From Desulfonatronovibrio sp. (GTDB taxonomy: Bacteria > Desulfobacterota > Desulfovibrionia > Desulfovibrionales > Desulfonatronovibrionaceae), in NCBI GenBank assembly GCA_003566455.1, contig PXDF01000227.1, positions 19,250-83,249 on the forward strand: a stretch of DNA of 64,000 nt, in the 5' to 3' direction. Position numbers and translations under genes: made by a program. Under the pieces are notes generated by a model that saw nothing but the letters and a program-made list of their open reading frames with translations, made no database searches and was not told the DNA's origin. How positions within the stretch are numbered: position 1 is the first letter of the stretch; each line of letters begins with the position of its first letter. Shown piece by piece: positions 1,183 through 53,911 of the stretch.

Positions 1183-2229
1183 TCAGAATTCAAATACAAC
1201 AGACTCAGTCATCCGCTTGGATTCAAAAACCCTTCCGATATCCCAGGCCCGGCAGTCCATGGCGTCAAGCCTGGACAATACGTCTTCAATATTTTCAGGC
1301 GGTATCACTACAATAAAACCAATGCCGCAGTTAAACACCTGAAGCATGTCTTCCCAGCTCATGTCTTCCTGGTTTTTGATCCAGTTCATTACCGGAGGAA
1401 TCTCCCATGATCCGAATCTAACAGCGGCTGAAAGCTTTTTCTGGATAATCCTGGGGATATTTTCATAAAAACCTCCCCCTGTAATGTGAACCATTCCATG
1501 TACAGGAATATCGCGCATTATGCTGGAAATTTCAGCGGTATAGATCTTTGTGGGTTCCAGCAGTACTTCTTTTACTGTTTTGGCGCTTCCTGGAAATATA
1601 TCGTCAGGATTCATCCTTGAATCCCTGAAGATCTTTCTGACCAGAGAAAACCCATTGGAATGAAGGCCTGAAGAGGCAAGTCCAATGATAGCATCTCCAG
1701 GCCTTATGGTTCTTCCGTCAACAATCTCACTGTTTTCCACAACCCCTACGCAAAACCCTGAAAGGTCATACTCTCCGGGCGCGTAAAAATCAGGCATTTC
1801 AGCAGTTTCTCCGCCAAGCAGGGCGCATCCGGCCATCCTGCAGCCCTGGGCAATGCCCTCAATAACGCTCTCAGCCTTGACAGGATCGAGTTTGCTTGTG
1901 GCGAAATAATCAAGGAAAAACAGAGGTTTTGCTCCCTGGACAAGTATATCGTTTACAGACATGGCAACAAGATCAATGCCTATTGTATGGTGAACATCAA
2001 AGGCAAAAGCCAGCTTGAGCTTAGTGCCCACGCCATCAGTCGAAGCCACAAGGACAGGCTCCCTGAAATCCTGGACATCCAGCTTGAACAGTCCAGCAAA
2101 GCCCCCGATATCGGCCATTACCCCCTTGATATGAGTGCCTGCCACAAAAGACTTGATCCTTTTGACAAACTCCCCTGCCTTTTCAATATCAACCCCTGCC
2201 TTTTTATAGGACTCGCCTCTCTGCGCCAT
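1183..2229 (-). CDS. purM: phosphoribosylformylglycinamidine cyclo-ligase (AIR synthetase)
   Basis: MAQRGESYKKAGVDIEKAGEFV..., DGVGTKL and the whole length are typical PurM. Start moved to the ATG at 2229, which follows a GGGAG SD. Confidence 0.95.
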   Translation of the reverse strand: MAQRGESYKKAGVDIEKAGEFVKRIKSFVAGTHIKGVMADIGGFAGLFKLDVQDFREPVLVASTDGVGTKLKLAFAFDVHHTIGIDLVAMSVNDILVQGAKPLFFLDYFATSKLDPVKAESVIEGIAQGCRMAGCALLGGETAEMPDFYAPGEYDLSGFCVGVVENSEIVDGRTIRPGDAIIGLASSGLHSNGFSLVRKIFRDSRMNPDDIFPGSAKTVKEVLLEPTKIYTAEISSIMRDIPVHGMVHITGGGFYENIPRIIQKKLSAAVRFGSWEIPPVMNWIKNQEDMSWEDMLQVFNCGIGFIVVIPPENIEDVLSRLDAMDCRAWDIGRVFESKRMTESVVFEF

Positions 2230-2452
2230 ATTCACTCCCTGATGATCTTCTTGCAGCAACAAAACACAGAAACCGCACTTCCAGTAAAATTATAAAGCTT
2301 GAAAGATCTGCAGCACGCAATGATAATCCTGACTGAACCATTCCAGGGTATAATCCTGCCGTTAAGAACCACAATAAAAATGAATTATATTTTTTTTTTA
2401 ACAAGCTCAAGAATTTTCCTCCAGACAAAAAAACGTTCCATGGATATGGAAA

Positions 2453-4307: not shown

Positions 4308-5321
4308 TTATTGAACGGCAAGCTCTGCCTCGTAATATTCCTTGAGTCTGAATAAATCGGCCAGGATTTCATCTGCAGGGAGATTATTTTTAGTTGCTTC
4401 TTCTTTCCATTTTTCAATAAGAAACTCGAGTTTCTCATCAATTTCCGCGTATTCCTCAGCAGCAAGCTCAAACATCTGATTATCATAGTTATCTCTTGCG
4501 TATTCCAGGGACTTTTCAACCTGGGCATCCATGTATTCTCCTGTCCAGATTGCCTGTTCCAATCTTAATTCTTCCATCACGTTCTGAACATCCTGGGGAA
4601 GACTGTTCCATTTATCCTTGTTCATGATCACGGCAAAAGGGTAAACCTGCAGATCAAGTCTGGTCTGATAGGGAGTATAAGCGGCAAAATTAAAATCCAT
4701 CAATACCTCCAGAGAAGAAAGCAGGCCTTTAACCATCCCCCTTTGCAGCGCCTCAGGGGTTTCAGACATGGGCATATCTACGGCTACAGCTCCGAGGATA
4801 TCAAGAATTTGAGAGGCTGTGCCTGAAGCCCGTATTTCCATTCCCTTGAGTTCAGCCAGATTTCTCACCGGCTGCTTGGTCATGAGGTTGGAAGGAGCGG
4901 TGCCGAACATGGTCAGAACTTTAACCTGCTCAAACTCCTGAGGCTGATACTTTTCAAAAAGCTCCCATAGAACTATGCTTGCCACCTTGGATGATGTGAA
5001 GCCCAGTGGAAGCTCCAGCACAGTGGTCATGGGAAAAACGCCAGGCTGGTAGGACATGCAGATATTCCCGATATCCGCCTGTCCCTGAATGACCCCTCTG
5101 AACATGTTTCTGGCGCCCAGCAGACTTCCTCCGGGATAAGTGTCAACCCTGACCTGCCCGTTGGTCCTTTCCTCAACCGCCTCCTTCCATCTTTCCATCT
5201 GGACCGACGGAAAAGTGCTTGCCGGCGGAAAATTGGCGTAACTGAGCCTGATGGTCTCCGCCGAAACCAGACAATAAGACCCTAAAACCAGAAAAATTGT
5301 CAAAACAAATTTCTTAATCAT
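4308..5321 (-). CDS. dctP: TRAP transporter substrate-binding protein (DctP family)
   Basis: DctP-like sequence. Start moved to MIKKFVLTIFLVLGSYCLVSA (signal peptide), preceded by a GGGAGA SD. The longer track ORF to 5489 has no signal peptide logic. Confidence 0.85.
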   Translation of the reverse strand: MIKKFVLTIFLVLGSYCLVSAETIRLSYANFPPASTFPSVQMERWKEAVEERTNGQVRVDTYPGGSLLGARNMFRGVIQGQADIGNICMSYQPGVFPMTTVLELPLGFTSSKVASIVLWELFEKYQPQEFEQVKVLTMFGTAPSNLMTKQPVRNLAELKGMEIRASGTASQILDILGAVAVDMPMSETPEALQRGMVKGLLSSLEVLMDFNFAAYTPYQTRLDLQVYPFAVIMNKDKWNSLPQDVQNVMEELRLEQAIWTGEYMDAQVEKSLEYARDNYDNQMFELAAEEYAEIDEKLEFLIEKWKEEATKNNLPADEILADLFRLKEYYEAELAVQ

Positions 5322-5683
5322 CACAGTCTCCCGGGGTAAAAATGTTGAGAAGCCGCCAAAAAAAAGGCCGCCAGACATTAGAGCCTGCGGCCTGAAAAGA
5401 AAAATCCTTTGCTTGTGTTCAAACAATGCCCTGATCTGGTTCAGGCCGAGCAATATATAATCTCCGCCACCAGTACAGAGCGTATTCATTGGGCCAAGCT
5501 GACCTGATATTAGCTTCCATTAAAATATTTTAGTTTGCCTGTAAATCTTTTGTCAAGCATTTTTGAGCCTGCTTGAAAAAATTAACAATTTTCCAGTAAA
5601 ATTTTTTTTTACTTGAAAATCACTGCTGTTGCATTATTAGTATTTTTGAAAGTCTGAACAACCTTTTGTCAAGGAGTAAACCC

Positions 5684-6697
5684 ATGTCCAACGCTATTCT
5701 CTGGAGACCACAAAAAAATTCTCAAATCCAATGTTTGGCATGCAGCCATTTTTGTCTAATTGATCCCGGCGAGGGTGGACTGTGCGGGGTAAGAGAAAAT
5801 CGGGACGGGAAAATGCACAGTCTGGTCAGAAACAAGGTTGCCGCCTTGAACGTCGACCCCATCGAAAAAAAACCCCTATTCCATTTTTTGCCGGGTACCC
5901 TGACTCTTTCCCTGGGCACAATGGGTTGCAATCTGTCATGCTCCTTCTGTCAGAACTATTCACTGTCTCAGACCCCCAGACAGAAAAAGGCCATTGAGGG
6001 CGAGGACATTACTGCTGAACAAATTATCAGGCTGGCTGGTGAATATTTCGCCGCCAGCATTTCCTACACTTATTCTGAACCCACCGTGTTTATCGAATTA
6101 GTAATGGATACAGCCAGGCCGGCCAGAGAAAAAGGTCTGAAAAACATTATTGTCAGCAACGGATTCCAAAGCCCTGACTGTCTCAAGGAGATGAACGGGC
6201 ACATCGATGCTGCCAATATCGACCTCAAGGCTTTTACTGAAAAGTTCTACCAGGAATATTGCGGAGCAAAGCTGAAGCCGGTCCTGAAAAATCTGGTTAA
6301 AATCAGAGAAATGGGCTGGTGGCTGGAACTGACCACCCTGATCATCCCCGGACTCAATGACTCATCAGAAGAATTAAACAAAATGGCTGAGTTTATTTTC
6401 ACAGAATTGGGACCAGATACTCCCTGGCATATATCGAGGTTTCATCCCACCTTTAAAATGACCAATATACATTCCACACCGGTTGAAACCCTGGAAAAGG
6501 CCTGGTCAATCGGACGTGATCAGGGGCTGAAGTTTGTTTACACCGGAAATGTGCCCGGACACGAGGCGGAAAATACTTTTTGTACGGCCTGCGGCAAACA
6601 GGTGGTCACCAGGATGGGCTTTGAGATCAAAAGTTCCCATGTCAATGACATGTTCTGTTCATTCTGCGGGGAAAAAATTCCCGGGGTTTGGAAATAG
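5684..6697 (+). CDS. amrS: AmmeMemoRadiSam system radical SAM enzyme
   Basis: CSHFC..GLCGVR N-terminal Cys motif plus the GCNLSCSFCQN radical SAM cluster. AAGGAG SD lies 7 nt before the ATG at 5684. Confidence 0.85.
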   Translation: MSNAILWRPQKNSQIQCLACSHFCLIDPGEGGLCGVRENRDGKMHSLVRNKVAALNVDPIEKKPLFHFLPGTLTLSLGTMGCNLSCSFCQNYSLSQTPRQKKAIEGEDITAEQIIRLAGEYFAASISYTYSEPTVFIELVMDTARPAREKGLKNIIVSNGFQSPDCLKEMNGHIDAANIDLKAFTEKFYQEYCGAKLKPVLKNLVKIREMGWWLELTTLIIPGLNDSSEELNKMAEFIFTELGPDTPWHISRFHPTFKMTNIHSTPVETLEKAWSIGRDQGLKFVYTGNVPGHEAENTFCTACGKQVVTRMGFEIKSSHVNDMFCSFCGEKIPGVWK

Positions 6698-15492: not shown

Positions 15493-15568
15493 TGGTGCCG
15501 AGGGACGGAATTGAACCGCCGACACGGGGATTTTCAGTCCCCTGCTCTACCGACTGAGCTACCTCGGC
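15493..15568 (-). tRNA. tRNA-Phe (anticodon GAA)
   Basis: The reverse complement GCCGAGGTAGCTCAGTCGGTAGAGCAGGGGACTGAAAATCCCCGTGTCGGCGGTTCAATTCCGTCCCTCGGCACCA folds as a cloverleaf with an encoded CCA. Confidence 0.95.
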
Positions 15569-21259: not shown

Positions 21260-21471
21260 CTTTATGTCCTTTTCTGGTATTCATTTTTTTTGCTTGTTTA
21301 CTGAACTGGATATCTCTGTTCTGGATAAACTTTTTGAATCCTGATGTTGAACAATTTTCTCACCCTTTACATTATTTCGAGAGAGGCTTATATTAGCAGA
21401 TATTAAATACTTATGGTCCCAATTTACATATACATCCTTTTAAACAAACATGTTGGGAAAAGGAGGACGAT

Positions 21472-21984
21472 ATGCACAGTGATAAAGCATGGAGCCCCTA
21501 TCTGGCTGGGGGACTGAGCGGACTTGTTTCAATACTTTCGGTCTGGATAGCCGGACAGTATTTTGGAGCGTCCACCACTTTTGTGCGCATTGCCGGAATG
21601 ATTGAAAGCGTTTTCACCCCTGAAAGGGTGGCTCAGCTGGAGTATTTTGTCCGGGTGGCCCCAAGGGTCGACTGGCAATGGATGTTTGTTACAGGGATCC
21701 TGGTGGGGTCATTCATCGCGGCCTGGACTTCAGGGACATTCAAAAAACAATGGGTGCCCGACATGTGGAACAGCAAGTTCGGACACACTCCGGTTAAACG
21801 AGGGTTCATGGCCTTTTTCGGAGGCGCGATCGCCATGTTCGGGGCCAGGATGGCTGACGGCTGACCCAGCGGGCACGGGTTGAGCGGTACGCTTCAACTT
21901 TCTGTGAGCGGGTTTATCTCCCTGATCTGCTTTTTCGCGGCAGGCATAGTTATGGCCAGAGTCATATACGGAGGTGCAAAATGA
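21472..21984 (+). CDS. YeeE/YedE family sulfur-compound transporter subunit, probable selenoprotein (in-frame TGA at 21862)
   Basis: The track ORF ends ...ARMADG-TGA, then the same frame continues PSGHGLSGTLQLSVSGFISLICFFAAGIVMARVIYGGAK. The TGA sits where the family motif GC(T/P)SGHG has Cys. The extended frame ends at TGA 21982-21984, overlapping the next ATG. Confidence 0.75.
21879..21898 (+). promoter_or_regulatory. candidate bacterial SECIS hairpin
   Basis: gttgagcg-gta-cgcttcaac forms an 8-bp stem with one bulged T and a G/U-containing apical loop. The stem starts 14 nt after the TGA. Confidence 0.45.
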
Positions 21985-22508
21985 AACTGATCATCCTGGG
22001 ACTCATTACTGGAATTCTATTCGGTTTTCTGCTGCAAAAGGCCAGGGTCATCCGGTATGACAAACAGCTGGGCGCCCTGCGGCTGATGGACATGACCATA
22101 GTCAAATTCATGCTTTCCGCGGTCATGGTGAGCATGGTCGGGGTCTATATTCTTCATGACCTGGGCCTTGTCGAGCTTTCCATAAAAACCACCATTCTTG
22201 GAGCCAATATTGTGGGAGGCATTTTATTCGGCATAGGCTGGGGCATGCTTGGTTATTGTCCTGGAACATCTCTGGGAGCCATTGGTGAAGGCAGACTTGA
22301 CGCTTTATGGGGCATCCTGGGGATGATCTTTGGCGCTGGAGTCTTTGCTGAATTCTACCCTGCTCTAAAAAACACTGTCTATACCTGGGGTGACTTTGGA
22401 AAAATAACCCTGCCCCAGGCTCTGGGCATAAACCACTGGATAGTCATTGTCCTTTTTATTATTTTCGGGATTCTGCTTTTTCGCTGGTTTGAAAAGAAAG
22501 GGCTGTAG
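21981..22508 (+). CDS. YeeE/YedE family sulfur-compound transporter subunit
   Basis: 4-5 TM protein with a GYCPGTS motif. GGAGG SD at 21970-21974. ATGA overlap with the extended upstream ORF. Confidence 0.85.
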   Translation: MKLIILGLITGILFGFLLQKARVIRYDKQLGALRLMDMTIVKFMLSAVMVSMVGVYILHDLGLVELSIKTTILGANIVGGILFGIGWGMLGYCPGTSLGAIGEGRLDALWGILGMIFGAGVFAEFYPALKNTVYTWGDFGKITLPQALGINHWIVIVLFIIFGILLFRWFEKKGL

Positions 22509-44106: not shown

Positions 44107-44739
44107 CTATCTCGTCTCCAGCTCGTCAAAACAGGATATGCACAATACCTGCTCATTGAACCTGCGGGTCCTGGTTTCCATGGTCTGCTCACCGCAGGAT
44201 TCGCAGACAATGCTGGAGAATATGCGGGCCTTTTTGGGTAACCCTTCCCTAGGCGCTTTGACTTCAAACACCTCGCTCAGGTCAGACTCCATTATTCTTC
44301 TGGAGATTTCCTGCCGGGTCTGTTTCCACAGGTTTTCTTCCTCATTGGTCAGTCCCTGGTTCTGCATCTTATGATGCAATTTGCCCAGGATGGCTGAGCT
44401 GTCACCATATATTGAAGGGCGCAGCACCAGGCGGGCTGATTTGTTGTCTCTTCTGCGGAAGAAGGTGAAGGCGTTTTTGCCCAGGTCCTTATGGATCAGG
44501 TTGCCCTTTCCAAAGGTACACCCTGTCAGGTACTGGATGGCGTCCACCCCGCACATGTCTGTTTCAACAACTGCCACGATTTCTTCGTCAGGCGATTTGC
44601 CCAACTCGGCCAGGGCCCATTCCGCGGCCCGGATGCCGATGGCCAGACCCGGGCACCAATGGCCGTGAAACCCGGTTGTTTTTTTAATGGTTTCCTGATC
44701 GATCCTTTCATGCTCCATAATATCCTCCATATTAATCAT
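44107..44739 (-). CDS. FmdE family protein with C-terminal zinc ribbon
   Basis: FHGHWCPGLAIGIRA motif and a C-terminal CESCGE...CISC ribbon. Confidence 0.85.
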   Translation of the reverse strand: MINMEDIMEHERIDQETIKKTTGFHGHWCPGLAIGIRAAEWALAELGKSPDEEIVAVVETDMCGVDAIQYLTGCTFGKGNLIHKDLGKNAFTFFRRRDNKSARLVLRPSIYGDSSAILGKLHHKMQNQGLTNEEENLWKQTRQEISRRIMESDLSEVFEVKAPREGLPKKARIFSSIVCESCGEQTMETRTRRFNEQVLCISCFDELETR

Positions 44740-44833: not shown

Positions 44834-46771
44834 TTAAATCAATGGGAAATGACACCTGACAAAATGAGCTCCCTGGCCGGTTTGCCGCGTTTCCGGATTG
44901 TCTTTTACGCATAAATCTCTTTTCCGGCCGCACCTTGGGACAAAAGGGCAGCCTTTGCGCGGGTCGGGTTTCAAACTGACAGTTCCTTCATGGACCCTTG
45001 GTCCGGCTCCATTCATGAGCAGCCCGGTATATGGATGGGCAGGCTTGTTTAAAATCTGCGCAGCTGAACCACTCTCAACCATCCTCCCGGCCAGCATCAC
45101 CCCGATGCGGTCCCCGATTTTTCTGGCCAGTCCAATGTCATGGGTCACAAAGAGCATGGTCAAACCTTTTTCGATCTGAAGGTCAAGAATCATCTTGAGA
45201 ACCTTGGCCTGAACACTTGGATCAAGAGAGCTGGTGGGCTCATCAGCTATGAGCAGGGAAGGACCTGTCACCAGCGCCCTGGCAATACATATTCTCTGCA
45301 GGGCTCCCATGTTCAGTTCATGCGGATAACGACGCAGAAATTCCGGTTCAGTGGACAGGTGCACGTCCTTAAGAGAGCTTAGTACTTTTTCCTGGATTTC
45401 CTGTCTGCTGTAATGTCCTTGAATTTTCAAGGGTTCTGCAACGATCTCGAAAACCGAAAACCTGTGGCTCACCGCCTGGGCAGGATGCTGATGAACCAGA
45501 CCGATCTGTCTGGCCAGGGAAAGGTAGTCCTGCCTGATCCATTGATCCATGTCCCGCTGGTTGTAAATCAGGGTGCCGCTGTCCTGCTCAAGCAGAGCCG
45601 CTCCGATCATGGCCAGAGTGGTCTTGCCAGAGCCTGACTCGCCCACAAGACAGAATGTCTCCCCGGCCTTGAGTTCCAGGTCTACGAGATGCACGGCGGT
45701 CTTGCCGGCATAGCTTTTGGAAATGCTTTTCAGCCTGAGCAAAGTAGCTATGCCTCCCCGGACGCACCTGAGCTCATGGCCGTCATCTTTCCGGAGGGCA
45801 ACTTCCTTTTCCCGGCACTCAGGTATGGCCTGGGTGCATCGGTCCACGAACAGGCAGCCCCCGGGAGTCGCGTGACTGTGCTCATGCTCCTGGTCGGGGC
45901 CGATAAGATGAGAATGAGACCGGATATTCCCGTTTTCCTCCCTGTGACGGTGAACCATGCGGTAAAACGCGTCTCCCCTGATTCCGCCGAGGTCGCGGTG
46001 GGTATCCAGGGCCGGATAGGACCTGGCAAGGGCCAGGGTATAGGGATGCCTGGGAGAAAGGAAAAGCTCCCCGGCCGGAAGGACCTCCATGACTTGACCC
46101 AGATAAAGGACCACGGCTTCATCAGCCGTATCACGCGCCAGGTCCAGGTCATGCGTAATGACCAGAACGGCCTGTCCATTATTTTTGGCGCCAAGGATGA
46201 CCCGGCGGATGATGGCCTTGTTCATGGAGTCCAGGGACGCAGTGGGCTCGTCCAGGATGATGATTTCAGGGTTCATGATCAATGCCATGGCCAGAAGGCA
46301 ACGCTGTATTTCACCGCCGCTGACCTGGTGTGGAAAGCGGCTTCCAAGACCAGGATCCAGTTCCATTTGTTCCAGGGCCTTTTGGGTCTGGATTCGGGCA
46401 TCTTTCCTGTTGCAACCCTGCTTCTGAACCAATGGCTCGGCAACCTGGTCGAGTATCCGTTGCACGGGGTTCAGGCTTTCCGCGCCGTTCTGAAAGAGCA
46501 TTGATATTTTGGACCAGCGGATATTGTTCATTTCCGGTGCAGGCAAAGACAGCAGTTCCAGGTTGTCCAGATTCACACTGCCTTCTAACCGGGCATAATC
46601 AGGCAGCAGTCCCATGACGGCTTTTCCCAGGGTGGTCTTGCCTGAGCCGGACTCGCCCACCAGGGCAGTGACTTTACCCGGGGTCAACTCCAGACACAGT
46701 CTTTCCAGGGCCAGAAGCATGTGTTCGTTGGAGACGTAAGTAACGCTTAGATTTTTGATTGTCAGGTTCAC
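44834..46771 (-). CDS. fused double ATP-binding subunit of an Opp/Dpp/Nik-type ABC transporter, with a His-rich linker
   Basis: Two Walker A sites (GESGSGKTT twice), two LSGG-type signatures and a linker HRHREENGNIRSHSHLIGPDQEHEHSH. Confidence 0.9.
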   Translation of the reverse strand: MNLTIKNLSVTYVSNEHMLLALERLCLELTPGKVTALVGESGSGKTTLGKAVMGLLPDYARLEGSVNLDNLELLSLPAPEMNNIRWSKISMLFQNGAESLNPVQRILDQVAEPLVQKQGCNRKDARIQTQKALEQMELDPGLGSRFPHQVSGGEIQRCLLAMALIMNPEIIILDEPTASLDSMNKAIIRRVILGAKNNGQAVLVITHDLDLARDTADEAVVLYLGQVMEVLPAGELFLSPRHPYTLALARSYPALDTHRDLGGIRGDAFYRMVHRHREENGNIRSHSHLIGPDQEHEHSHATPGGCLFVDRCTQAIPECREKEVALRKDDGHELRCVRGGIATLLRLKSISKSYAGKTAVHLVDLELKAGETFCLVGESGSGKTTLAMIGAALLEQDSGTLIYNQRDMDQWIRQDYLSLARQIGLVHQHPAQAVSHRFSVFEIVAEPLKIQGHYSRQEIQEKVLSSLKDVHLSTEPEFLRRYPHELNMGALQRICIARALVTGPSLLIADEPTSSLDPSVQAKVLKMILDLQIEKGLTMLFVTHDIGLARKIGDRIGVMLAGRMVESGSAAQILNKPAHPYTGLLMNGAGPRVHEGTVSLKPDPRKGCPFVPRCGRKRDLCVKDNPETRQTGQGAHFVRCHFPLI

Positions 46772-47607
46772 ATTATTTCCTTGAGTCTCGGATCAAAAAC
46801 CTTCTCCAGGCTCAGGGCCAGAAAGGTTACGCCCATGATCAGCAGGGTCAGGCAGACGACCGGGGGCAAAAGCCAGTTCCACCATATGTCCAGGTAGTAA
46901 TACCTGAGGGCGTAATTGATCATCATGCCCAGAGACTTCCTGCCGGGATCAAGAAGCCCCAGAAAACTCAGGGACACTTCCATGAACATGGCCATTCTTG
47001 CCTTGGAAGCAAAGCCGATGAGATACAGGGGATAGAGTTCAGGCATGAGATGTGTGCGGATGATGTACAGTCCGGAAGCCCCCATCTGGCGTGATGCATG
47101 AATGTGCAGCCCAGTCTTGACCGCCAGGGTCTGGGCGCGGACCACCTTGGCTATGGTCGGCCAGGACAGGGCAGCCAGGATCAGGGCCAGGTACAGGGGC
47201 GTCGGCCTGAAAAAGGCGGCCAGGAGAATTAGGATCATGACGGCTGGAACAGCCAGGAGAACATCAGACAGCCGCATTATGACCAGATCCGGAATTCCGC
47301 GGAACCAGGCGCTGAAAAGCCCGGCTCCCGAGCCGATTACTAAGCAGACCAGGCCGGTGAAAAGACCGAAATACAGAGTATTCTTCATCCCGGCCAGGAG
47401 TTCTGAAAAAATATCCATGCCTCCATCGTTTACTCCCAGCCAGTGCTCAGCTGAAGGAGGGCTGAATGGGGTAAAGGCCATGTCGTGAGGGTCATGGACA
47501 ACCAGCACGGGAGATAACAGAAGAAAAATCAATATGAAGGCTGAAACTGCCCCCCCGGAAACAAACCACGGGTCACGAAGGAGTCTTGTTTTGAAGTTAA
47601 GATGCAT
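46768..47607 (-). CDS. ABC transporter permease (DppC/NikC-like)
   Basis: BPD-type permease. Start moved to the ATG at 47607 (MHLNFKTRLL), overlapping the upstream stop. Confidence 0.85.
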   Translation of the reverse strand: MHLNFKTRLLRDPWFVSGGAVSAFILIFLLLSPVLVVHDPHDMAFTPFSPPSAEHWLGVNDGGMDIFSELLAGMKNTLYFGLFTGLVCLVIGSGAGLFSAWFRGIPDLVIMRLSDVLLAVPAVMILILLAAFFRPTPLYLALILAALSWPTIAKVVRAQTLAVKTGLHIHASRQMGASGLYIIRTHLMPELYPLYLIGFASKARMAMFMEVSLSFLGLLDPGRKSLGMMINYALRYYYLDIWWNWLLPPVVCLTLLIMGVTFLALSLEKVFDPRLKEIM

Positions 47608-48562
47608 GACGCACCCTGGGATCAAGGAACCCGTAAGCTGATTCCAGTGCAATGTTGATCAGAAGAATGGCCAGTGAGGAAAAGAGCACAATACCCTGGA
47701 CCAGAGGCAGGTCGCGCTGGGAAATTGCGTTGAACAAAAGGGTCCCCAGGCCCGGGTAGGAATAGATGGTCTCGATGACCAGTGCGCCGGTAACCATGAA
47801 AGCGATGCGCAGTCCAAACCTGGTAACCATGGGCAGAAGGGCGTTTCTGGCTGCATGGGCGTAACGCACTCGCACGGAAGGCAGCCCCTTGGCTCTGGCT
47901 GTTTCCAGATACTGTTTCTTAAGAATCATGACCATGCTGGCCCTGGTCAGCAGAAAGTTTCCCGGAAAATACGCCAGAAAAAGGGTGGTAAAAGGAAGGG
48001 CCAGGTGTTTGAGAATGTCAGTGAAGCGCGCCAGGCCTGAGAGTTCAGCATAGGCTGTTTCTCCGCCCACGGCTGGAAACCAGCCCAGATAAAAGGCAAA
48101 AACCATAAGCAGGATAACCCCTGTTCCAATTTCAGGGATCCCCTGAAGCACGGTCATAATCCCGACCCCGGATTTTTCCGCGGCGCTCCCCCGTCTCCAG
48201 GCCGCTTCCACCCCGGCTAAAAAGCCCGCAATCATGGACAGGACATGGGCGCTGCCCATGAGCAGAAGGGTCCAGGGCAGGGCCTGCAGGATCAGCCGGG
48301 AAATGGGAGACAGAAAAGCATAAGAATATCCCCATTCGAGGGTAACAAGGTCTTTCAGATACCGGCCAAACCCATCCTGAGCCGTATAGTATGACCTGAG
48401 TTCCTGCTCCTGGGCAGCACTCAAGGTTACATGGGAGCTGGAGTATATGGCTGAGACAAAATCGCCGGGCAGCATCCGGGGCAGAAGATAACCCGCGTGC
48501 ACCATGACCAATGCGGCCAGGGCGTATGCGAGCAAATTAGATCCAGGACCGGTCCGGCGCAT
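47597..48562 (-). CDS. ABC transporter permease (DppB/NikB-like)
   Basis: BPD-type permease with the EAA-like region ETARAKGL. Confidence 0.85.
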   Translation of the reverse strand: MRRTGPGSNLLAYALAALVMVHAGYLLPRMLPGDFVSAIYSSSHVTLSAAQEQELRSYYTAQDGFGRYLKDLVTLEWGYSYAFLSPISRLILQALPWTLLLMGSAHVLSMIAGFLAGVEAAWRRGSAAEKSGVGIMTVLQGIPEIGTGVILLMVFAFYLGWFPAVGGETAYAELSGLARFTDILKHLALPFTTLFLAYFPGNFLLTRASMVMILKKQYLETARAKGLPSVRVRYAHAARNALLPMVTRFGLRIAFMVTGALVIETIYSYPGLGTLLFNAISQRDLPLVQGIVLFSSLAILLINIALESAYGFLDPRVRHAS

Positions 48563-49678: not shown

Positions 49679-50284
49679 CTAATTTTTCTGGAAAAACAAT
49701 CTCAGCTCTTCCTTACGCAATACCTCGCAATAATGTTCGATCTTCCTGGCCACTATTCTGGAATCCTCAGATCTGTGAAAATTGTCCATCAGGTACAGGA
49801 TGACCTCTTTTTCCTTGTAGGCAAGCCTTTTTAAAAAATAACGATACGCTTCAGGACCTGGATAAACCTTCCTGATCAACTCTACAAGAGTATTTCCATG
49901 CTTTAAAAGCATGGGCCGGTAATGATCCTCCAGGATCTTAATCACCTTTATCTCTTTTTGGGCCAGGATAGTCTCCTCTGATGTAGCCAGGGAGACCTGG
50001 GGAAAATAATCCTCAACATCATAACTTACTTTCTTTCCGGACTCCGCTTCGATATAAGCTTTGTCCAGGGCCTTTTGCTTTGTGCTCAAGATGCTCTCAG
50101 CAAATGTACGTACCCCGATTTTGTAATGTTTGATTATCATGAAGTGATGGACAAAAAGTATGGGAATTAAAATCATCCAGGCAGAGGCTTCAGGCTTTTC
50201 CACTACATTTCTGGCCAATGCGTAGGCGAATTGTTCTTCATGACTAAGAATCATTTCGTATTTTCTTATGAGATCAGAAGACAC
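49679..50284 (-). CDS. hypothetical membrane-anchored protein (201 aa)
   Basis: A long ORF with one central TM segment (AWMILIPILFVHHFMII). I recognise no family. Confidence 0.45.
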   Translation of the reverse strand: MSSDLIRKYEMILSHEEQFAYALARNVVEKPEASAWMILIPILFVHHFMIIKHYKIGVRTFAESILSTKQKALDKAYIEAESGKKVSYDVEDYFPQVSLATSEETILAQKEIKVIKILEDHYRPMLLKHGNTLVELIRKVYPGPEAYRYFLKRLAYKEKEVILYLMDNFHRSEDSRIVARKIEHYCEVLRKEELRLFFQKN

Positions 50285-52963: not shown

Positions 52964-53911
52964 ATGTTTTTTCCGGTTGCAGGAATTGAAGTAGCTCCAT
53001 GGATACCTTTTGCTGCGGGTTTTGCGGTAGCTTTTGTATGCTCCATGGGAGGAGTGTCAGGAGCCAATCTTCTTTTGCCTTTTCAGGTCAGTGTGCTGGG
53101 TTTTGTCTCTCCAGCGGTAAGCGCCACCAATCATCTGTTCAATATAGTAGCCATCCCAAGCGGGGTCTACAGGTATATCAGGGAAGGGAGGATGGTCTGG
53201 CCCCTGACCTGGATAGTTATAGCCGGGACCGTGCCCGGGGTTTTCATCGGCGTTTTTTTCAGGATTCGTTATCTTCCTGATCCCACCCATTTCCGGGTCT
53301 TTGCCGGAATTGTTCTTCTATATATCGGTTATGTCATGGTCCGTTCCCTGATCAAGGGTCCACCCCCGGGGACGGACAAAGCCTCTTCTGAAAAACGTTT
53401 TCAGGAACTGGTAAGCCGTTTTCAAAAAATGGACGCAGCCACCAGGGAGCCCCTGCCCAGAGTCCAGCTCAGACATTTTGGCCTGAAATCAGTGCAGTAT
53501 TCATTTTACGGAGAAAACATTTCCGCTCCCACCATGGGCATCCTCATCCTGAGCGCCATAGTCGGGGTCGTGGGAGGCATGTACGGGATCGGCGGCGGGG
53601 CCATTATCGCGCCCTTTTTCGTGGCCGTGTTTCATCTGCCGGTTTACACCATTGCCGGAGCCTGCCTCATGGGGACATTCATAACCTCAGTGGTGGCAGC
53701 CCTGTTTTTCCAGTTCCTTGCCCCTTTTTATCCGGACATGGCAGTCGCTCCGGACTGGATGCTGGGAATCCTGATGGGTGCAGGGGGAATGATAGGCATG
53801 TACATCGGCGCCAGAGTCCAGAAATTTGTTCCGGCCAAGGTCATCAAGTGGATACTGGCCTTTATCCTTGTGTTTACTGGAGGCAGATACGTGCTGAGCT
53901 TTTTGTTTTAA
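52964..53911 (+). CDS. TauE/SafE family anion exporter-like permease
   Basis: Two 4-TM halves separated by a ~60-aa hydrophilic loop, with TauE-like glycine-rich helices. Confidence 0.8.
   Translation: MFFPVAGIEVAPWIPFAAGFAVAFVCSMGGVSGANLLLPFQVSVLGFVSPAVSATNHLFNIVAIPSGVYRYIREGRMVWPLTWIVIAGTVPGVFIGVFFRIRYLPDPTHFRVFAGIVLLYIGYVMVRSLIKGPPPGTDKASSEKRFQELVSRFQKMDAATREPLPRVQLRHFGLKSVQYSFYGENISAPTMGILILSAIVGVVGGMYGIGGGAIIAPFFVAVFHLPVYTIAGACLMGTFITSVVAALFFQFLAPFYPDMAVAPDWMLGILMGAGGMIGMYIGARVQKFVPAKVIKWILAFILVFTGGRYVLSFLF

What the first reader, a model, noticed from the sequence alone, without database searches (positions are those of the whole stretch)
21472..21984. In-frame TGA at the conserved cysteine of a YeeE/YedE transporter motif: probable selenocysteine
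**Evidence for read-through**
- The 130-aa track ORF stops at TGA 21862-21864 in the context ...FGARMADG-TGA-PSGHGLSG.... The YeeE/YedE (DUF395, thiosulfate uptake TsuA) family has a conserved G-C-(T/P)-S-G-H-G motif there, and the Cys is functionally essential.
- The same frame stays open for 38 more hydrophobic codons (a plausible TM helix).
- It ends at TGA 21982-21984, which overlaps the ATG of the second YeeE-like gene in an ATGA junction with a GGAGG SD. Without read-through, this coupling geometry would be coincidence.

**SECIS**
- A hairpin (21879..21898, 8-bp stem with one bulge, G/U-containing loop) starts 14 nt after the TGA. That is within the window where bacterial SECIS elements sit.

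**Significance**
- A Sec in the substrate-relay position of a sulfur or selenium transporter would be mechanistically interesting. I cannot say from memory whether this Sec form has been catalogued.
Basis: partly seen in the sequence, partly recalled or inferred. Interest (0 to 1): 0.7.

Follow-up and report, generated by a model that had tools for sequence, protein, structure and literature searches.

The report
Selenocysteine in a split YeeE/YedE transporter
The in-frame TGA is very probably a real selenocysteine codon in one half of a two-gene YeeE/YedE-type sulfur transporter, with a conserved RNA hairpin to direct its decoding, but this selenoprotein family is already listed in published catalogues.

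Summary
ORF 21472-21864 ends at TGA 21862-64. The frame then stays open for 39 codons to TGA 21982-84, which overlaps the ATG of the next gene.

- **Cys column:** the TGA aligns with an invariant Cys (ADG-C-PSGHG) of full-length homologues, and with Cys293 of S. thermophila TsuA. Cys293 is the essential outward-facing thiosulfate site.
- **Conservation:** the same TGA occurs in at least 114 species genomes (Thermodesulfobacteriota, Synergistota, Nitrospirota, Negativicutes). The downstream codons are under purifying selection.
- **SECIS:** the hairpin at 21878-21899 (loop GUA, 22 nt after UGA) meets the published bacterial SECIS model. Two of its pairs covary at synonymous sites. Cys-encoding homologues lack both the hairpin and the synonymous-site constraint.
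- **Architecture:** the two genes form a PmpA/PmpB-like split pair. Gene 1 resembles the C-terminal half and carries Sec131. Gene 2 resembles the N-terminal half and carries Cys93, equivalent to TsuA Cys91.

Sec machinery could not be checked, because the window holds no selA, selB, selC or selD and the rest of the genome is out of reach.

A "YeeE/YedE family" selenoprotein (motif GUxSG) already appears in Peng et al. 2016 and in reviews of 2022 and 2026. This is a well-supported but ordinary member of a known, experimentally uncharacterised family. The substrate is unknown.

The parts
21366..21394 (+). Promoter-like site (TTTACA-17-TATATT) about 78 nt upstream of gene 1. This is a weak consensus match only.
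   Evidence: 10 of 12 matches; 5 such sites in the region against 2.0 expected. Function is not shown.
21460..21466 (+). Shine-Dalgarno sequence AAGGAGG of gene 1, 5 nt before ATG 21472.
   Evidence: Read directly from the sequence.
21472..21984 (+). Gene 1: a PmpA-like half-size YeeE/YedE protein of 170 residues, with selenocysteine at position 131. It resembles the C-terminal half of full-length YeeE/TsuA.
   Evidence: PF04143, 74.4 bits, profile positions 174-309; aligns to TsuA residues 231-328.
21862..21864 (+). In-frame TGA read as selenocysteine (U131). It occupies the column of the invariant Cys of ADG-C-PSGHG, equivalent to TsuA Cys293.
   Evidence: TGA is otherwise an ordinary stop in this window (13 of 35 genes).
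21878..21899 (+). Bacterial SECIS hairpin: a 9-pair stem (21878-21886 with 21890-21892 and 21894-21899), a bulged U at 21893 and the apical loop GUA at 21887-21889, which lies 22 nt after the UGA.
   Evidence: MFE structure; 90.7% of cells paired, covariation at pairs 18-37 and 19-36; local MFE -9.0 kcal/mol here; mean -11.4 in Sec forms against -5.7 in Cys forms; model criteria from PMC13188914.
21865..21981 (+). The 39 codons after the Sec codon, which complete the G-U-P-S-G-H-G motif and encode the last hydrophobic helix.
   Evidence: conserved in 114 genomes; pN/pS 0.07-0.19, the same as the upstream 130 codons.
21970..21984 (+). Coupling junction: GGAGG (21970-74), ATG of gene 2 (21981-83) and the true stop TGA of gene 1 (21982-84), overlapping as ATGA.
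   Evidence: (a start/stop overlap in 102 of 111 related loci).
21981..22508 (+). Gene 2: a PmpB-like half-size YeeE/YedE protein of 175 aa. It resembles the N-terminal half of YeeE/TsuA. Cys93 (codon 22257-22259, motif GYCPGT) is equivalent to TsuA Cys91.
   Evidence: PF04143, 57.8 bits, profile positions 18-149; aligns to TsuA residues 2-124; GYCPGT in 89 loci.

Best explanation
Genes 21472-21984 and 21981-22508 form a two-gene operon for a split YeeE/YedE-family membrane channel of the PmpA/PmpB type.

**Decoding.** Gene 1 is a selenoprotein. UGA 21862-64 is decoded as selenocysteine when SelB and Sec-tRNA(Sec) bind the SECIS hairpin at 21878-21899. Translation continues for 39 more codons. 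It stops at UGA 21982-84, where ribosomes re-initiate on the overlapping AUG of gene 2.

**Placement of the residue.** By homology with TsuA, the two half-proteins would pair into one pseudo-symmetric pore. Sec131 would sit at the outward-facing substrate-capture site (TsuA Cys293, position I). Cys93 of gene 2 would sit at the central site (TsuA Cys91).

**Function.** The likely job is passage of a sulfur or selenium anion, such as thiosulfate, sulfane sulfur or polysulfide, or a selenium species. The selenol, which is more nucleophilic and has a lower pKa, would replace the thiol in the relay.

**What is shown and what is inferred.** Shown here: the TGA-to-Cys column identity, conserved translation past the TGA, the conserved and covarying SECIS, and the split-gene architecture. 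Inferred: actual Se incorporation, heterodimer formation, and the substrate.
For: - **Family and halves:** Pfam PF04143 hits for both genes, to complementary halves of the profile.
- **Residue equivalences:** U131 corresponds to TsuA Cys293 and gene 2 Cys93 to TsuA Cys91. Both TsuA cysteines are essential, and Cys293 contacts bound thiosulfate (PMC7449682).
- **Architecture:** the PmpA (C-terminal half, Cys293) / PmpB (N-terminal half, Cys91) heterodimer proposal is published (PMC11582611).
- **Cys column:** invariant Cys in 12 full-length homologues; the four closest homologues were all called as 130 aa ending ...MADG.
- **Breadth:** the same TGA with 38-46 conserved in-frame codons after it in 114 species genomes from selenoprotein-rich phyla.
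- **Translation past the TGA:** pN/pS after the TGA is 0.07-0.19, equal to the upstream part.
- **SECIS:** meets all four criteria of the published bSECIS model. These are a 3-nt loop starting G-U, a 9-bp stem, 22-nt spacing and -9.0 kcal/mol.
- **Covariation:** pair 19-36 is CG 81 / UA 27 with 4 non-pairs. Pair 18-37 shows four Watson-Crick types.
- **Control with Cys forms:** third-codon positions 21, 24, 27 and 30 are nearly invariant in Sec forms (entropy 0.13, 0, 0.34, 0.35). They are free in Cys forms that encode the same Leu-Ser-Gly (1.70, 0.71, 1.91, 1.0). Columns 19 and 36 vary independently in Cys forms.
- **Interchange:** Sec and Cys forms are intermixed on a tree, with at least 26 switches.
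- **Literature:** a YeeE/YedE selenoprotein with motif GUxSG is already listed.
Against: - No selA, selB, selD or tRNA-Sec lies in the 64-kb window. The rest of the genome could not be inspected.
- No second selenoprotein gene was recognised in the window.
- The folding energy of the single sequence is not significant against shuffles (z = -1.44).
- There is no experimental evidence of Se incorporation for any member of this family in the papers found.
- The substrate is unknown. Scores against the TsuA and YedE equivalog models are far below their cut-offs. No TsuB/YeeD, TusA or YedF partner gene lies next to the pair.
Confidence: 0.9

Rival explanations
1. The TGA is a genuine stop. Gene 1 yields a truncated 130-residue protein, and the 117-nt stretch before gene 2 is untranslated or a decaying remnant (a pseudogene or a split gene).
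For: Gene callers annotate exactly this in every assembly (130-aa products P0001, P0016, P0026, P0028 and P0082). TGA is a normal stop in this window. Sec machinery was not seen.
Against: The downstream frame stays open and is conserved at the protein level in 114 species, with mostly synonymous change (pN/pS 0.07-0.19). A truncated product would lack the SGHG part of the motif and the last helix. Gene 2's start abuts the end of the extension, not the TGA. The hairpin covaries only in TGA forms.
Confidence: 0.03
2. UGA is read through as a standard amino acid (Cys, Trp or Gly), either by near-cognate or suppressor decoding or by Cys-charged tRNA(Sec), rather than as selenocysteine.
For: Cys is the residue at this column in homologues. 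Sec incorporation was not demonstrated. The UGA-C context is known to be a leaky termination context in E. coli (my own knowledge, not tested here).
Against: A SECIS-type hairpin with the G-U apical loop at the canonical distance is conserved and covaries specifically with TGA. That is the signature of SelB-dependent decoding. The taxa that carry the TGA are the known selenoprotein-rich phyla (PMC13188914). TGA is not reassigned in this window.
Confidence: 0.05
3. The C-terminal helix is made as a separate micro-protein from the internal TTG at 21880 (ORF 21880..21984, 34 aa), giving a three-piece transporter.
For: the ORF listing reports a 34-aa TTG ORF in the same frame.
Against: That codon is CTG in 82 of 113 relatives and TTG in only 28, so it is not a conserved start. 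No Shine-Dalgarno sequence precedes it. The TTG/CTG choice covaries with the paired base 36, as expected for an RNA stem and not for a start codon.
Confidence: 0.01
4. A sequencing or assembly error turned TGC or TGT into TGA.
For: It would take only a single-base difference from a Cys codon.
Against: The identical TGA occurs in independent assemblies from JGI, Logan/SRA and NCBI and in 114 species genomes.
Confidence: 0.005

Closest known systems
YeeE/YedE family selenoprotein (motif GUxSG; representative WP_012471001.1), as listed in Peng et al. 2016 ISME J Suppl. Table S3 and in the reviews PMC9312934 (2022) and PMC13188914 (2026)
   Same: PF04143 family, one Sec, and the motif G-U-x-S-G (here D-G-U-P-S-G-H-G). 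It is found in Thermodesulfobacteriota and other anaerobes.
   Different: Nothing essential differs. The catalogue gave 5 sequences in 5 organisms in 2016 and says nothing on SECIS structure, the split-gene architecture or the structural position of the Sec. Here at least 114 species were found and those features were worked out. I could not retrieve WP_012471001.1 itself to align it.
PmpA/PmpB short YeeE/YedE proteins (Serratia sp. ATCC 39006; analysed in PMC11582611)
   Same: Two adjacent half-size genes. One matches the C-terminal half of YeeE, with a Cys at the Cys293 position. The other matches the N-terminal half, with a Cys at the Cys91 position. A heterodimer has been proposed.
   Different: Here the Cys293-equivalent is Sec. 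The proteins are 170 and 175 aa rather than about 130 aa. Direct homology to Serratia PmpAB was not tested.
TsuA/YeeE thiosulfate transporter of Spirochaeta thermophila and E. coli (PDB 6LEO, 8J4C)
   Same: The same fold family. The conserved GGC/GxC loops align, and U131 corresponds to Cys293, the periplasmic thiosulfate-binding site I.
   Different: TsuA is a single 330-350-aa chain with three conserved Cys and a TsuB/YeeD partner. Here there are two chains, no Cys22 equivalent (Ile24 in gene 2), and no TsuB neighbour. NCBIfam scores are 39-51 bits against cut-offs of 400-645.
YedE/FdhT selenium-metabolism membrane protein (TIGR04112, NF033796)
   Same: The same superfamily, and a link to selenium biology.
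   Different: YedE is proposed to transport selenium and is usually next to YedF. Here the scores are 26-35 bits against cut-offs of 200-350, there is no YedF neighbour, and selenium is in the protein itself.

Membership tests
Bacterial selenoprotein gene (SelB/SECIS-dependent UGA decoding) | In-frame UGA at a position occupied by Cys in homologues | tested here: met
   Invariant Cys column in 12 full-length homologues; TsuA Cys293.
Bacterial selenoprotein gene (SelB/SECIS-dependent UGA decoding) | The reading frame continues past the UGA and is conserved as protein | tested here: met
   38-46 conserved codons in 114 genomes; pN/pS 0.07-0.19.
Bacterial selenoprotein gene (SelB/SECIS-dependent UGA decoding) | [quoted passage not shown] | tested here: met
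   Loop GUA, 9-bp stem, 22-nt spacing, -9.0 kcal/mol. 97% of 113 Sec forms pass the energy criterion, against 20% of Cys forms. Covariation.
Bacterial selenoprotein gene (SelB/SECIS-dependent UGA decoding) | The genome encodes selA, selB, selD and tRNA-Sec (selC) | not testable with these tools
   None lies in the 64-kb window (the AIRS-domain ORF 1183..2262 is PurM).
Bacterial selenoprotein gene (SelB/SECIS-dependent UGA decoding) | Selenium demonstrated in the polypeptide | not testable with these tools
   Needs 75Se labelling or mass spectrometry.
YeeE/YedE family (Pfam PF04143 Sulf_transp) | Significant match to the family profile above the gathering score | tested here: met
   74.4 and 57.8 bits against a cut-off of 27.
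PmpA/PmpB-type split YeeE/YedE pair | Two adjacent short genes: one matches the C-terminal half with a Cys at the Cys293 position, the other the N-terminal half with a Cys at the Cys91 position (PMC11582611) | tested here: met
   Caveats: Sec replaces the first Cys, the proteins are 170 and 175 aa rather than about 130 aa, and the helix count was not determined.
TsuA thiosulfate transporter (NF041049 / NF052577) | Score above the curated equivalog cut-off, a single chain of about 340 aa with three conserved Cys, and an adjacent TsuB/YeeD gene | tested here: not met
   31-51 bits against cut-offs of 400-645. Split genes; Ile at the Cys22 position. No TusA-like neighbour in the window or recurrent in 116 related loci.
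YedE selenium transporter (TIGR04112 / NF033796) | Score above the cut-off and a YedF neighbour | tested here: not met
   26-35 bits against cut-offs of 200-350. The neighbours are the PHO4/PhoU and nadB-nadA-nadC genes.
Catalogued YeeE/YedE selenoprotein family | PF04143 protein with the Sec motif GUxSG | tested here: met
   The sequence reads ADG-U-PSG-HG. Motif taken from PMC13188914.

The most novel reading that the evidence does not exclude
The Sec at the outward-facing entry site (TsuA position I) may change the chemistry of the pore rather than simply replace Cys. Under this reading the PmpAB-type channel would use a covalent selenenyl-sulfide or selenenyl-selenide intermediate. That intermediate would capture sulfane sulfur, polysulfide or selenide, instead of the hydrogen-bond relay proposed for TsuA. 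The channel could then act as a dedicated importer of zero-valent sulfur or of selenium in anaerobes. The recurrent CoA-disulfide-reductase-like gene directly downstream in the Syntrophorhabdus clade would fit a persulfide-handling pathway. At least 26 inferred Sec/Cys switches argue that the two residues are largely interchangeable, which weighs against a qualitatively new mechanism.
Probability: 0.12. Interest if true: 0.6.

Novelty: already known. Interest (0 to 1): 0.25.

Why it matters
**Annotation.** Gene callers truncate this gene at 130 residues in every assembly examined. The essential SGHG part of the motif and the last helix are therefore lost from databases. The SECIS consensus and the ADG-TGA-CCN-WSN-GGN-CAY-GG signature derived here would let the family be annotated correctly.

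**Biology.** This is one of the few selenoproteins that is an integral membrane channel. The Sec sits at the position that captures substrate in the only solved structure of the fold. That makes it a convenient natural test of whether YeeE-type pores use thiol or selenol chemistry or only hydrogen bonding.

None of this is unexpected to a selenoprotein specialist, because the family is already in published catalogues.

Tried and rejected
- **Rfam.** A scan of the window at gathering thresholds found only two tRNAs and SRP RNA, and nothing at the hairpin.
- **Single-sequence folding.** Not significant (z = -1.44), so I relied on comparative analysis instead.
- **A possible SelD.** ORF 1183..2262 has AIRS and AIRS_C domains. 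NCBIfam identifies it as PurM at 432 bits, so it is not SelD.
- **A second selenoprotein in the window.** I searched for ORFs ending in TGA with an extension of at least 25 codons. There were 94 candidates, nearly all in non-coding frames or shadow ORFs. The ten that lie in gene gaps do not look like proteins, apart from an ArsR-like regulator that simply ends at TGA. None was accepted.
- **The window's own contig.** The look-up of encoding contigs found no record for the window's own protein, so the source genome and its Sec machinery could not be reached.
- **Primary references.** The main texts of the references cited for the family (PMC2398784, PMC5029168) do not name it. It appears only in a supplementary table of Peng et al. 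2016. The one 'YedE' match in the supplements of PMC2398784 is a string inside an unrelated sequence alignment, not a mention of the family.
- **Sec in gene 2.** I looked for relatives with Sec also in gene 2 (G-Y-U-P-G-T) and found none.
- **Conserved partner genes.** I looked for a universally conserved neighbour such as TusA/YeeD, YedF, a rhodanese or a regulator around 116 TGA loci. Only the two transporter genes are universal.

Full report
**1. The observation**

- ORF 21472..21864 (130 aa) stops at TGA 21862-64 in the context FGARMADG-TGA-PSGHGLSG.
- The same frame continues for 39 sense codons (PSGHGLSGTLQLSVSGFISLICFFAAGIVMARVIYGGAK) to TGA 21982-84.
- That stop overlaps ATG 21981-83 of a 175-aa gene as ATGA, and GGAGG lies 6 nt upstream of the ATG.
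- Both genes match Pfam PF04143 (Sulf_transp, the YeeE/YedE family) above the gathering score.
- The two genes match complementary halves of the profile. Gene 1 matches positions 174-309 and gene 2 matches positions 18-149.

**2. Which residue the TGA replaces**

A database search with the read-through product found about 2,500 homologues.

- Twelve full-length homologues (about 172 aa, 62-68% identity) have an invariant Cys in ADGCPSGHGLSG exactly at the TGA column.
- The four closest homologues (84-89% identity) were all called as 130-aa proteins ending ...MADG. They carry the same TGA.
- Against solved structures, the TGA column aligns with Cys293 of Spirochaeta thermophila TsuA/YeeE (PDB 6LEO; I counted the residue number from the alignment).
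- In that structure Cys293 is one of three residues surrounding the bound thiosulfate at the periplasmic 'position I'.
- C293A and C91A abolish complementation, while C22A does not (PMC7449682).
- Gene 2 aligns with TsuA residues 2-124. Its Cys93 (GYCPGT, codon 22257-59) falls on TsuA Cys91, and the Cys22 position is Ile.

This is the split architecture described for PmpA/PmpB. PmpA matches the C-terminal half with a Cys at the Cys293 position. PmpB matches the N-terminal half with a Cys at the Cys91 position. A heterodimer has been proposed (PMC11582611).

**3. Is the TGA translated?**

I fetched the DNA of the close relatives from JGI, Logan and NCBI assemblies.

- In all ten loci, which represent four distinct homologue clusters, the TGA is present and 39-40 in-frame codons follow.
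- The differences among them are mostly synonymous.
- Against the window, pN/pS over the first 35 codons after the TGA is 0.07-0.19. Over the 130 upstream codons it is 0.12-0.13.

- 114 of the 119 are true members. Where the contig allows, they have 38-46 further conserved codons.
- The other 5 are chance hits.
- The carriers are Thermodesulfobacteriota (Syntrophia, Syntrophorhabdia, Desulfobacterales, Desulfuromonadales, Desulfovibrionales), Synergistota, Nitrospirota and Negativicutes.
- The review literature names Thermodesulfobacteriota and Synergistota among the most selenoprotein-rich lineages (PMC13188914).
- In 102 of 111 loci the second gene's start overlaps the true stop of the extension, 71 of them as ATGA. 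It is never near the internal TGA.

TGA is not reassigned in this organism. It terminates 13 of 35 well-supported genes in the window.

**4. The SECIS element**

Its parts are:

- a stem formed by 21878-21886 pairing with 21890-21892 and 21894-21899;
- a bulged U at 21893;
- the loop GUA at 21887-89, which lies 22 nt after the UGA.

It satisfies all four criteria of the published bacterial SECIS model (PMC13188914). [quoted passage not shown]

The fold of the single sequence is not significant on its own (z = -1.44). The comparative evidence is strong. On 113 distinct sequences (alignment A2):

| Measure | Result |
|---|---|
| Hairpin cells paired | 90.7%, against 26-50% when the 3' partners are slid |
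| Pair 19-36 | CG in 81, UA in 27, GU-type in 1, non-pairs in 4 |
| Pair 18-37 | GC 74, AU 14, UA 8, CG 6, GU 3, non-pairs in 8 |

In most sequences the varying bases of these pairs are synonymous choices. Examples are the first base of a Leu codon, the third base of a Gly codon and the third base of a Gln codon.

Two structural subtypes exist.

- The first has a G-U-N triloop with a one-base bulge. It accounts for 80 sequences, including the window.
- The second has a GGUCUG hexaloop without a bulge. It occurs in variants whose protein reads GLSGLAQ, so the hairpin is kept despite an amino-acid change.

**5. Control with Cys-encoding homologues**

A metagenome scan with the same pattern but TGY gave 99 distinct Cys-form sequences. 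They encode the same Leu-Ser-Gly at nt 19-27.

| Measure | Sec forms | Cys forms |
|---|---|---|
| Entropy at third positions 21 / 24 / 27 / 30 | 0.13 / 0 / 0.34 / 0.35 | 1.70 / 0.71 / 1.91 / 1.0 |
| Columns 19 and 36 | Covary | Vary independently (CG 50, CA 21, UG 19, UA 7) |
| Hairpin cells paired | 90.7% | 61% |
| Mean local MFE (kcal/mol) | -11.4 | -5.7 |
| Share with MFE <= -7.5 | 97% | 20% |

Third positions outside the hairpin are about equally variable in both sets. The RNA constraint is therefore tied to the TGA, as expected of a SECIS. One caveat applies. The Cys sample is dominated by a somewhat different subfamily (GLSGMMQL), so only the Leu-Ser-Gly codons are strictly comparable.

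**6. What could not be shown**

- The window contains no tRNA-Sec, selA, selB or selD. An AIRS-domain ORF that might have been SelD is PurM.
- No second selenoprotein gene was recognised in the window.
- The closest named genome for the gene pair is a Desulfonatronovibrio sp. MAG at 78.6% nucleotide identity.

**7. Function**

The pair stands alone, between a divergent PHO4/PhoU phosphate-transport unit and a convergent nadB-nadA-nadC unit.

- This synteny is kept in most of the close relatives (L001-L004, L007-L010). It says nothing about the substrate.
- Across 116 TGA loci only the two transporter genes are universal.
- In about 13 Syntrophorhabdus-clade loci a CoA-disulfide-reductase-like flavoprotein follows on the same strand. 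It scores 439 bits, just below the equivalog cut-off of 458. This hints at persulfide or disulfide chemistry.
- Scores against the TsuA and YedE equivalog models are far below their cut-offs, and no TsuB/YeeD or YedF partner is adjacent.
- The gene pair should therefore not be filed as TsuA or YedE.

My best inference is a heterodimeric PmpAB-type pore for a sulfur or selenium anion. A selenol would sit at the outer capture site and a thiol at the centre.

On a rough NJ tree of 193 Sec and Cys forms, at least 26 Sec/Cys switches are needed. The two residues are therefore functionally interchangeable, as in most selenoprotein families.

**8. Novelty**

- A 'YeeE/YedE family' selenoprotein is listed with 5 sequences in 5 organisms in Supplementary Table S3 of Peng et al. 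2016.
- It also appears in the catalogues of two reviews. There it is given as PF04143, with representative WP_012471001.1; the 2026 review also gives the motif GUxSG (PMC9312934 and PMC13188914).
- The 2026 review mentions it in one sentence among predicted Sec-containing transporters.
- No experimental work and no description of its SECIS, of its split-gene nature or of the structural position of the Sec was found.

The finding is therefore correct but already known in kind. This analysis adds four things:

- the equivalence with TsuA Cys293;
- the PmpAB-type architecture;
- a well-supported SECIS consensus with a Cys-form control;
- a much wider distribution, of at least 114 species.

Noticed in passing
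L057:about 4376-5806 (+) and the equivalent position in L029, L030, L039, L044, L048, L055, L068, L078, L081, L096, L126, L129: In the Syntrophorhabdus clade a roughly 476-aa CoA-disulfide-reductase-like flavoprotein lies directly downstream of the Sec-containing gene pair on the same strand. It scores 439 bits against NF007123, just under the cut-off of 458. This may be a functional link to persulfide or disulfide reduction. It is not present in the window.
   Followed up: partly
Alignment A2 (113 TGA loci), nt 17-38 after the T of TGA: The SECIS comes in two structural subtypes. One has a G-U-N triloop with a one-base 3' bulge (protein GLSG[ST]LQ). The other has a GGUCUG hexaloop without a bulge (protein GLSGLAQ). 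The hairpin is kept across an amino-acid change.
   Followed up: partly
window:48564-49505 (-) and 49679-50284 (-): The substrate-binding protein of an Opp/Dpp-type ABC operon matches only profile positions 169-365 of SBP_bac_5, so its N-terminal third is missing. The operon comprises the ATPase 44834-46771 and the permeases 46768-47652 and 47597-48562, next to an FmdE-like gene at 44107-44739. The open frame runs upstream without a start into an unrelated 201-aa ORF. This could be a truncated gene or a frameshift.
   Followed up: partly
window:58717-58960 (-): A short ArsR/SmtB-like helix-turn-helix ORF (…LCVSILAKELGMSPAAVSQHLRVLRDSGL…) lies just after the AcrB-type efflux gene. It sits at the start of a 3.6-kb stretch (58.5-62.1 kb) that has no ORF of 200 aa or more. 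It was identified by eye only.
   Followed up: no
window:51618-52697 (-) and 52964-53911 (+): A protein combining a phage-integrase-like region with two TOBE domains lies divergent from a TauE/SafE sulfite-exporter-family gene. This is another sulfur-anion membrane protein in the window, 31 kb from the finding.
   Followed up: no
window:6688-8817 (+): A MoeA (molybdopterin molybdenumtransferase) fused to a C-terminal PBP-like periplasmic-binding-type domain. It is preceded by an AmmeMemoRadiSam-system radical SAM gene (5666-6697).
   Followed up: no
window:14088-15263 (-): A 391-aa protein made almost entirely of ankyrin repeats (Ank_2, 347 bits), which is unusual for a bacterial chromosome. 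It lies next to tRNA-Phe (15493-15568).
   Followed up: no
window:21021-21471: A 450-nt AT-rich intergenic region separates the divergent PHO4 gene from gene 1. No Rfam family matches it at gathering score, and only a weak promoter-like site (21366-21394) was found.
   Followed up: partly
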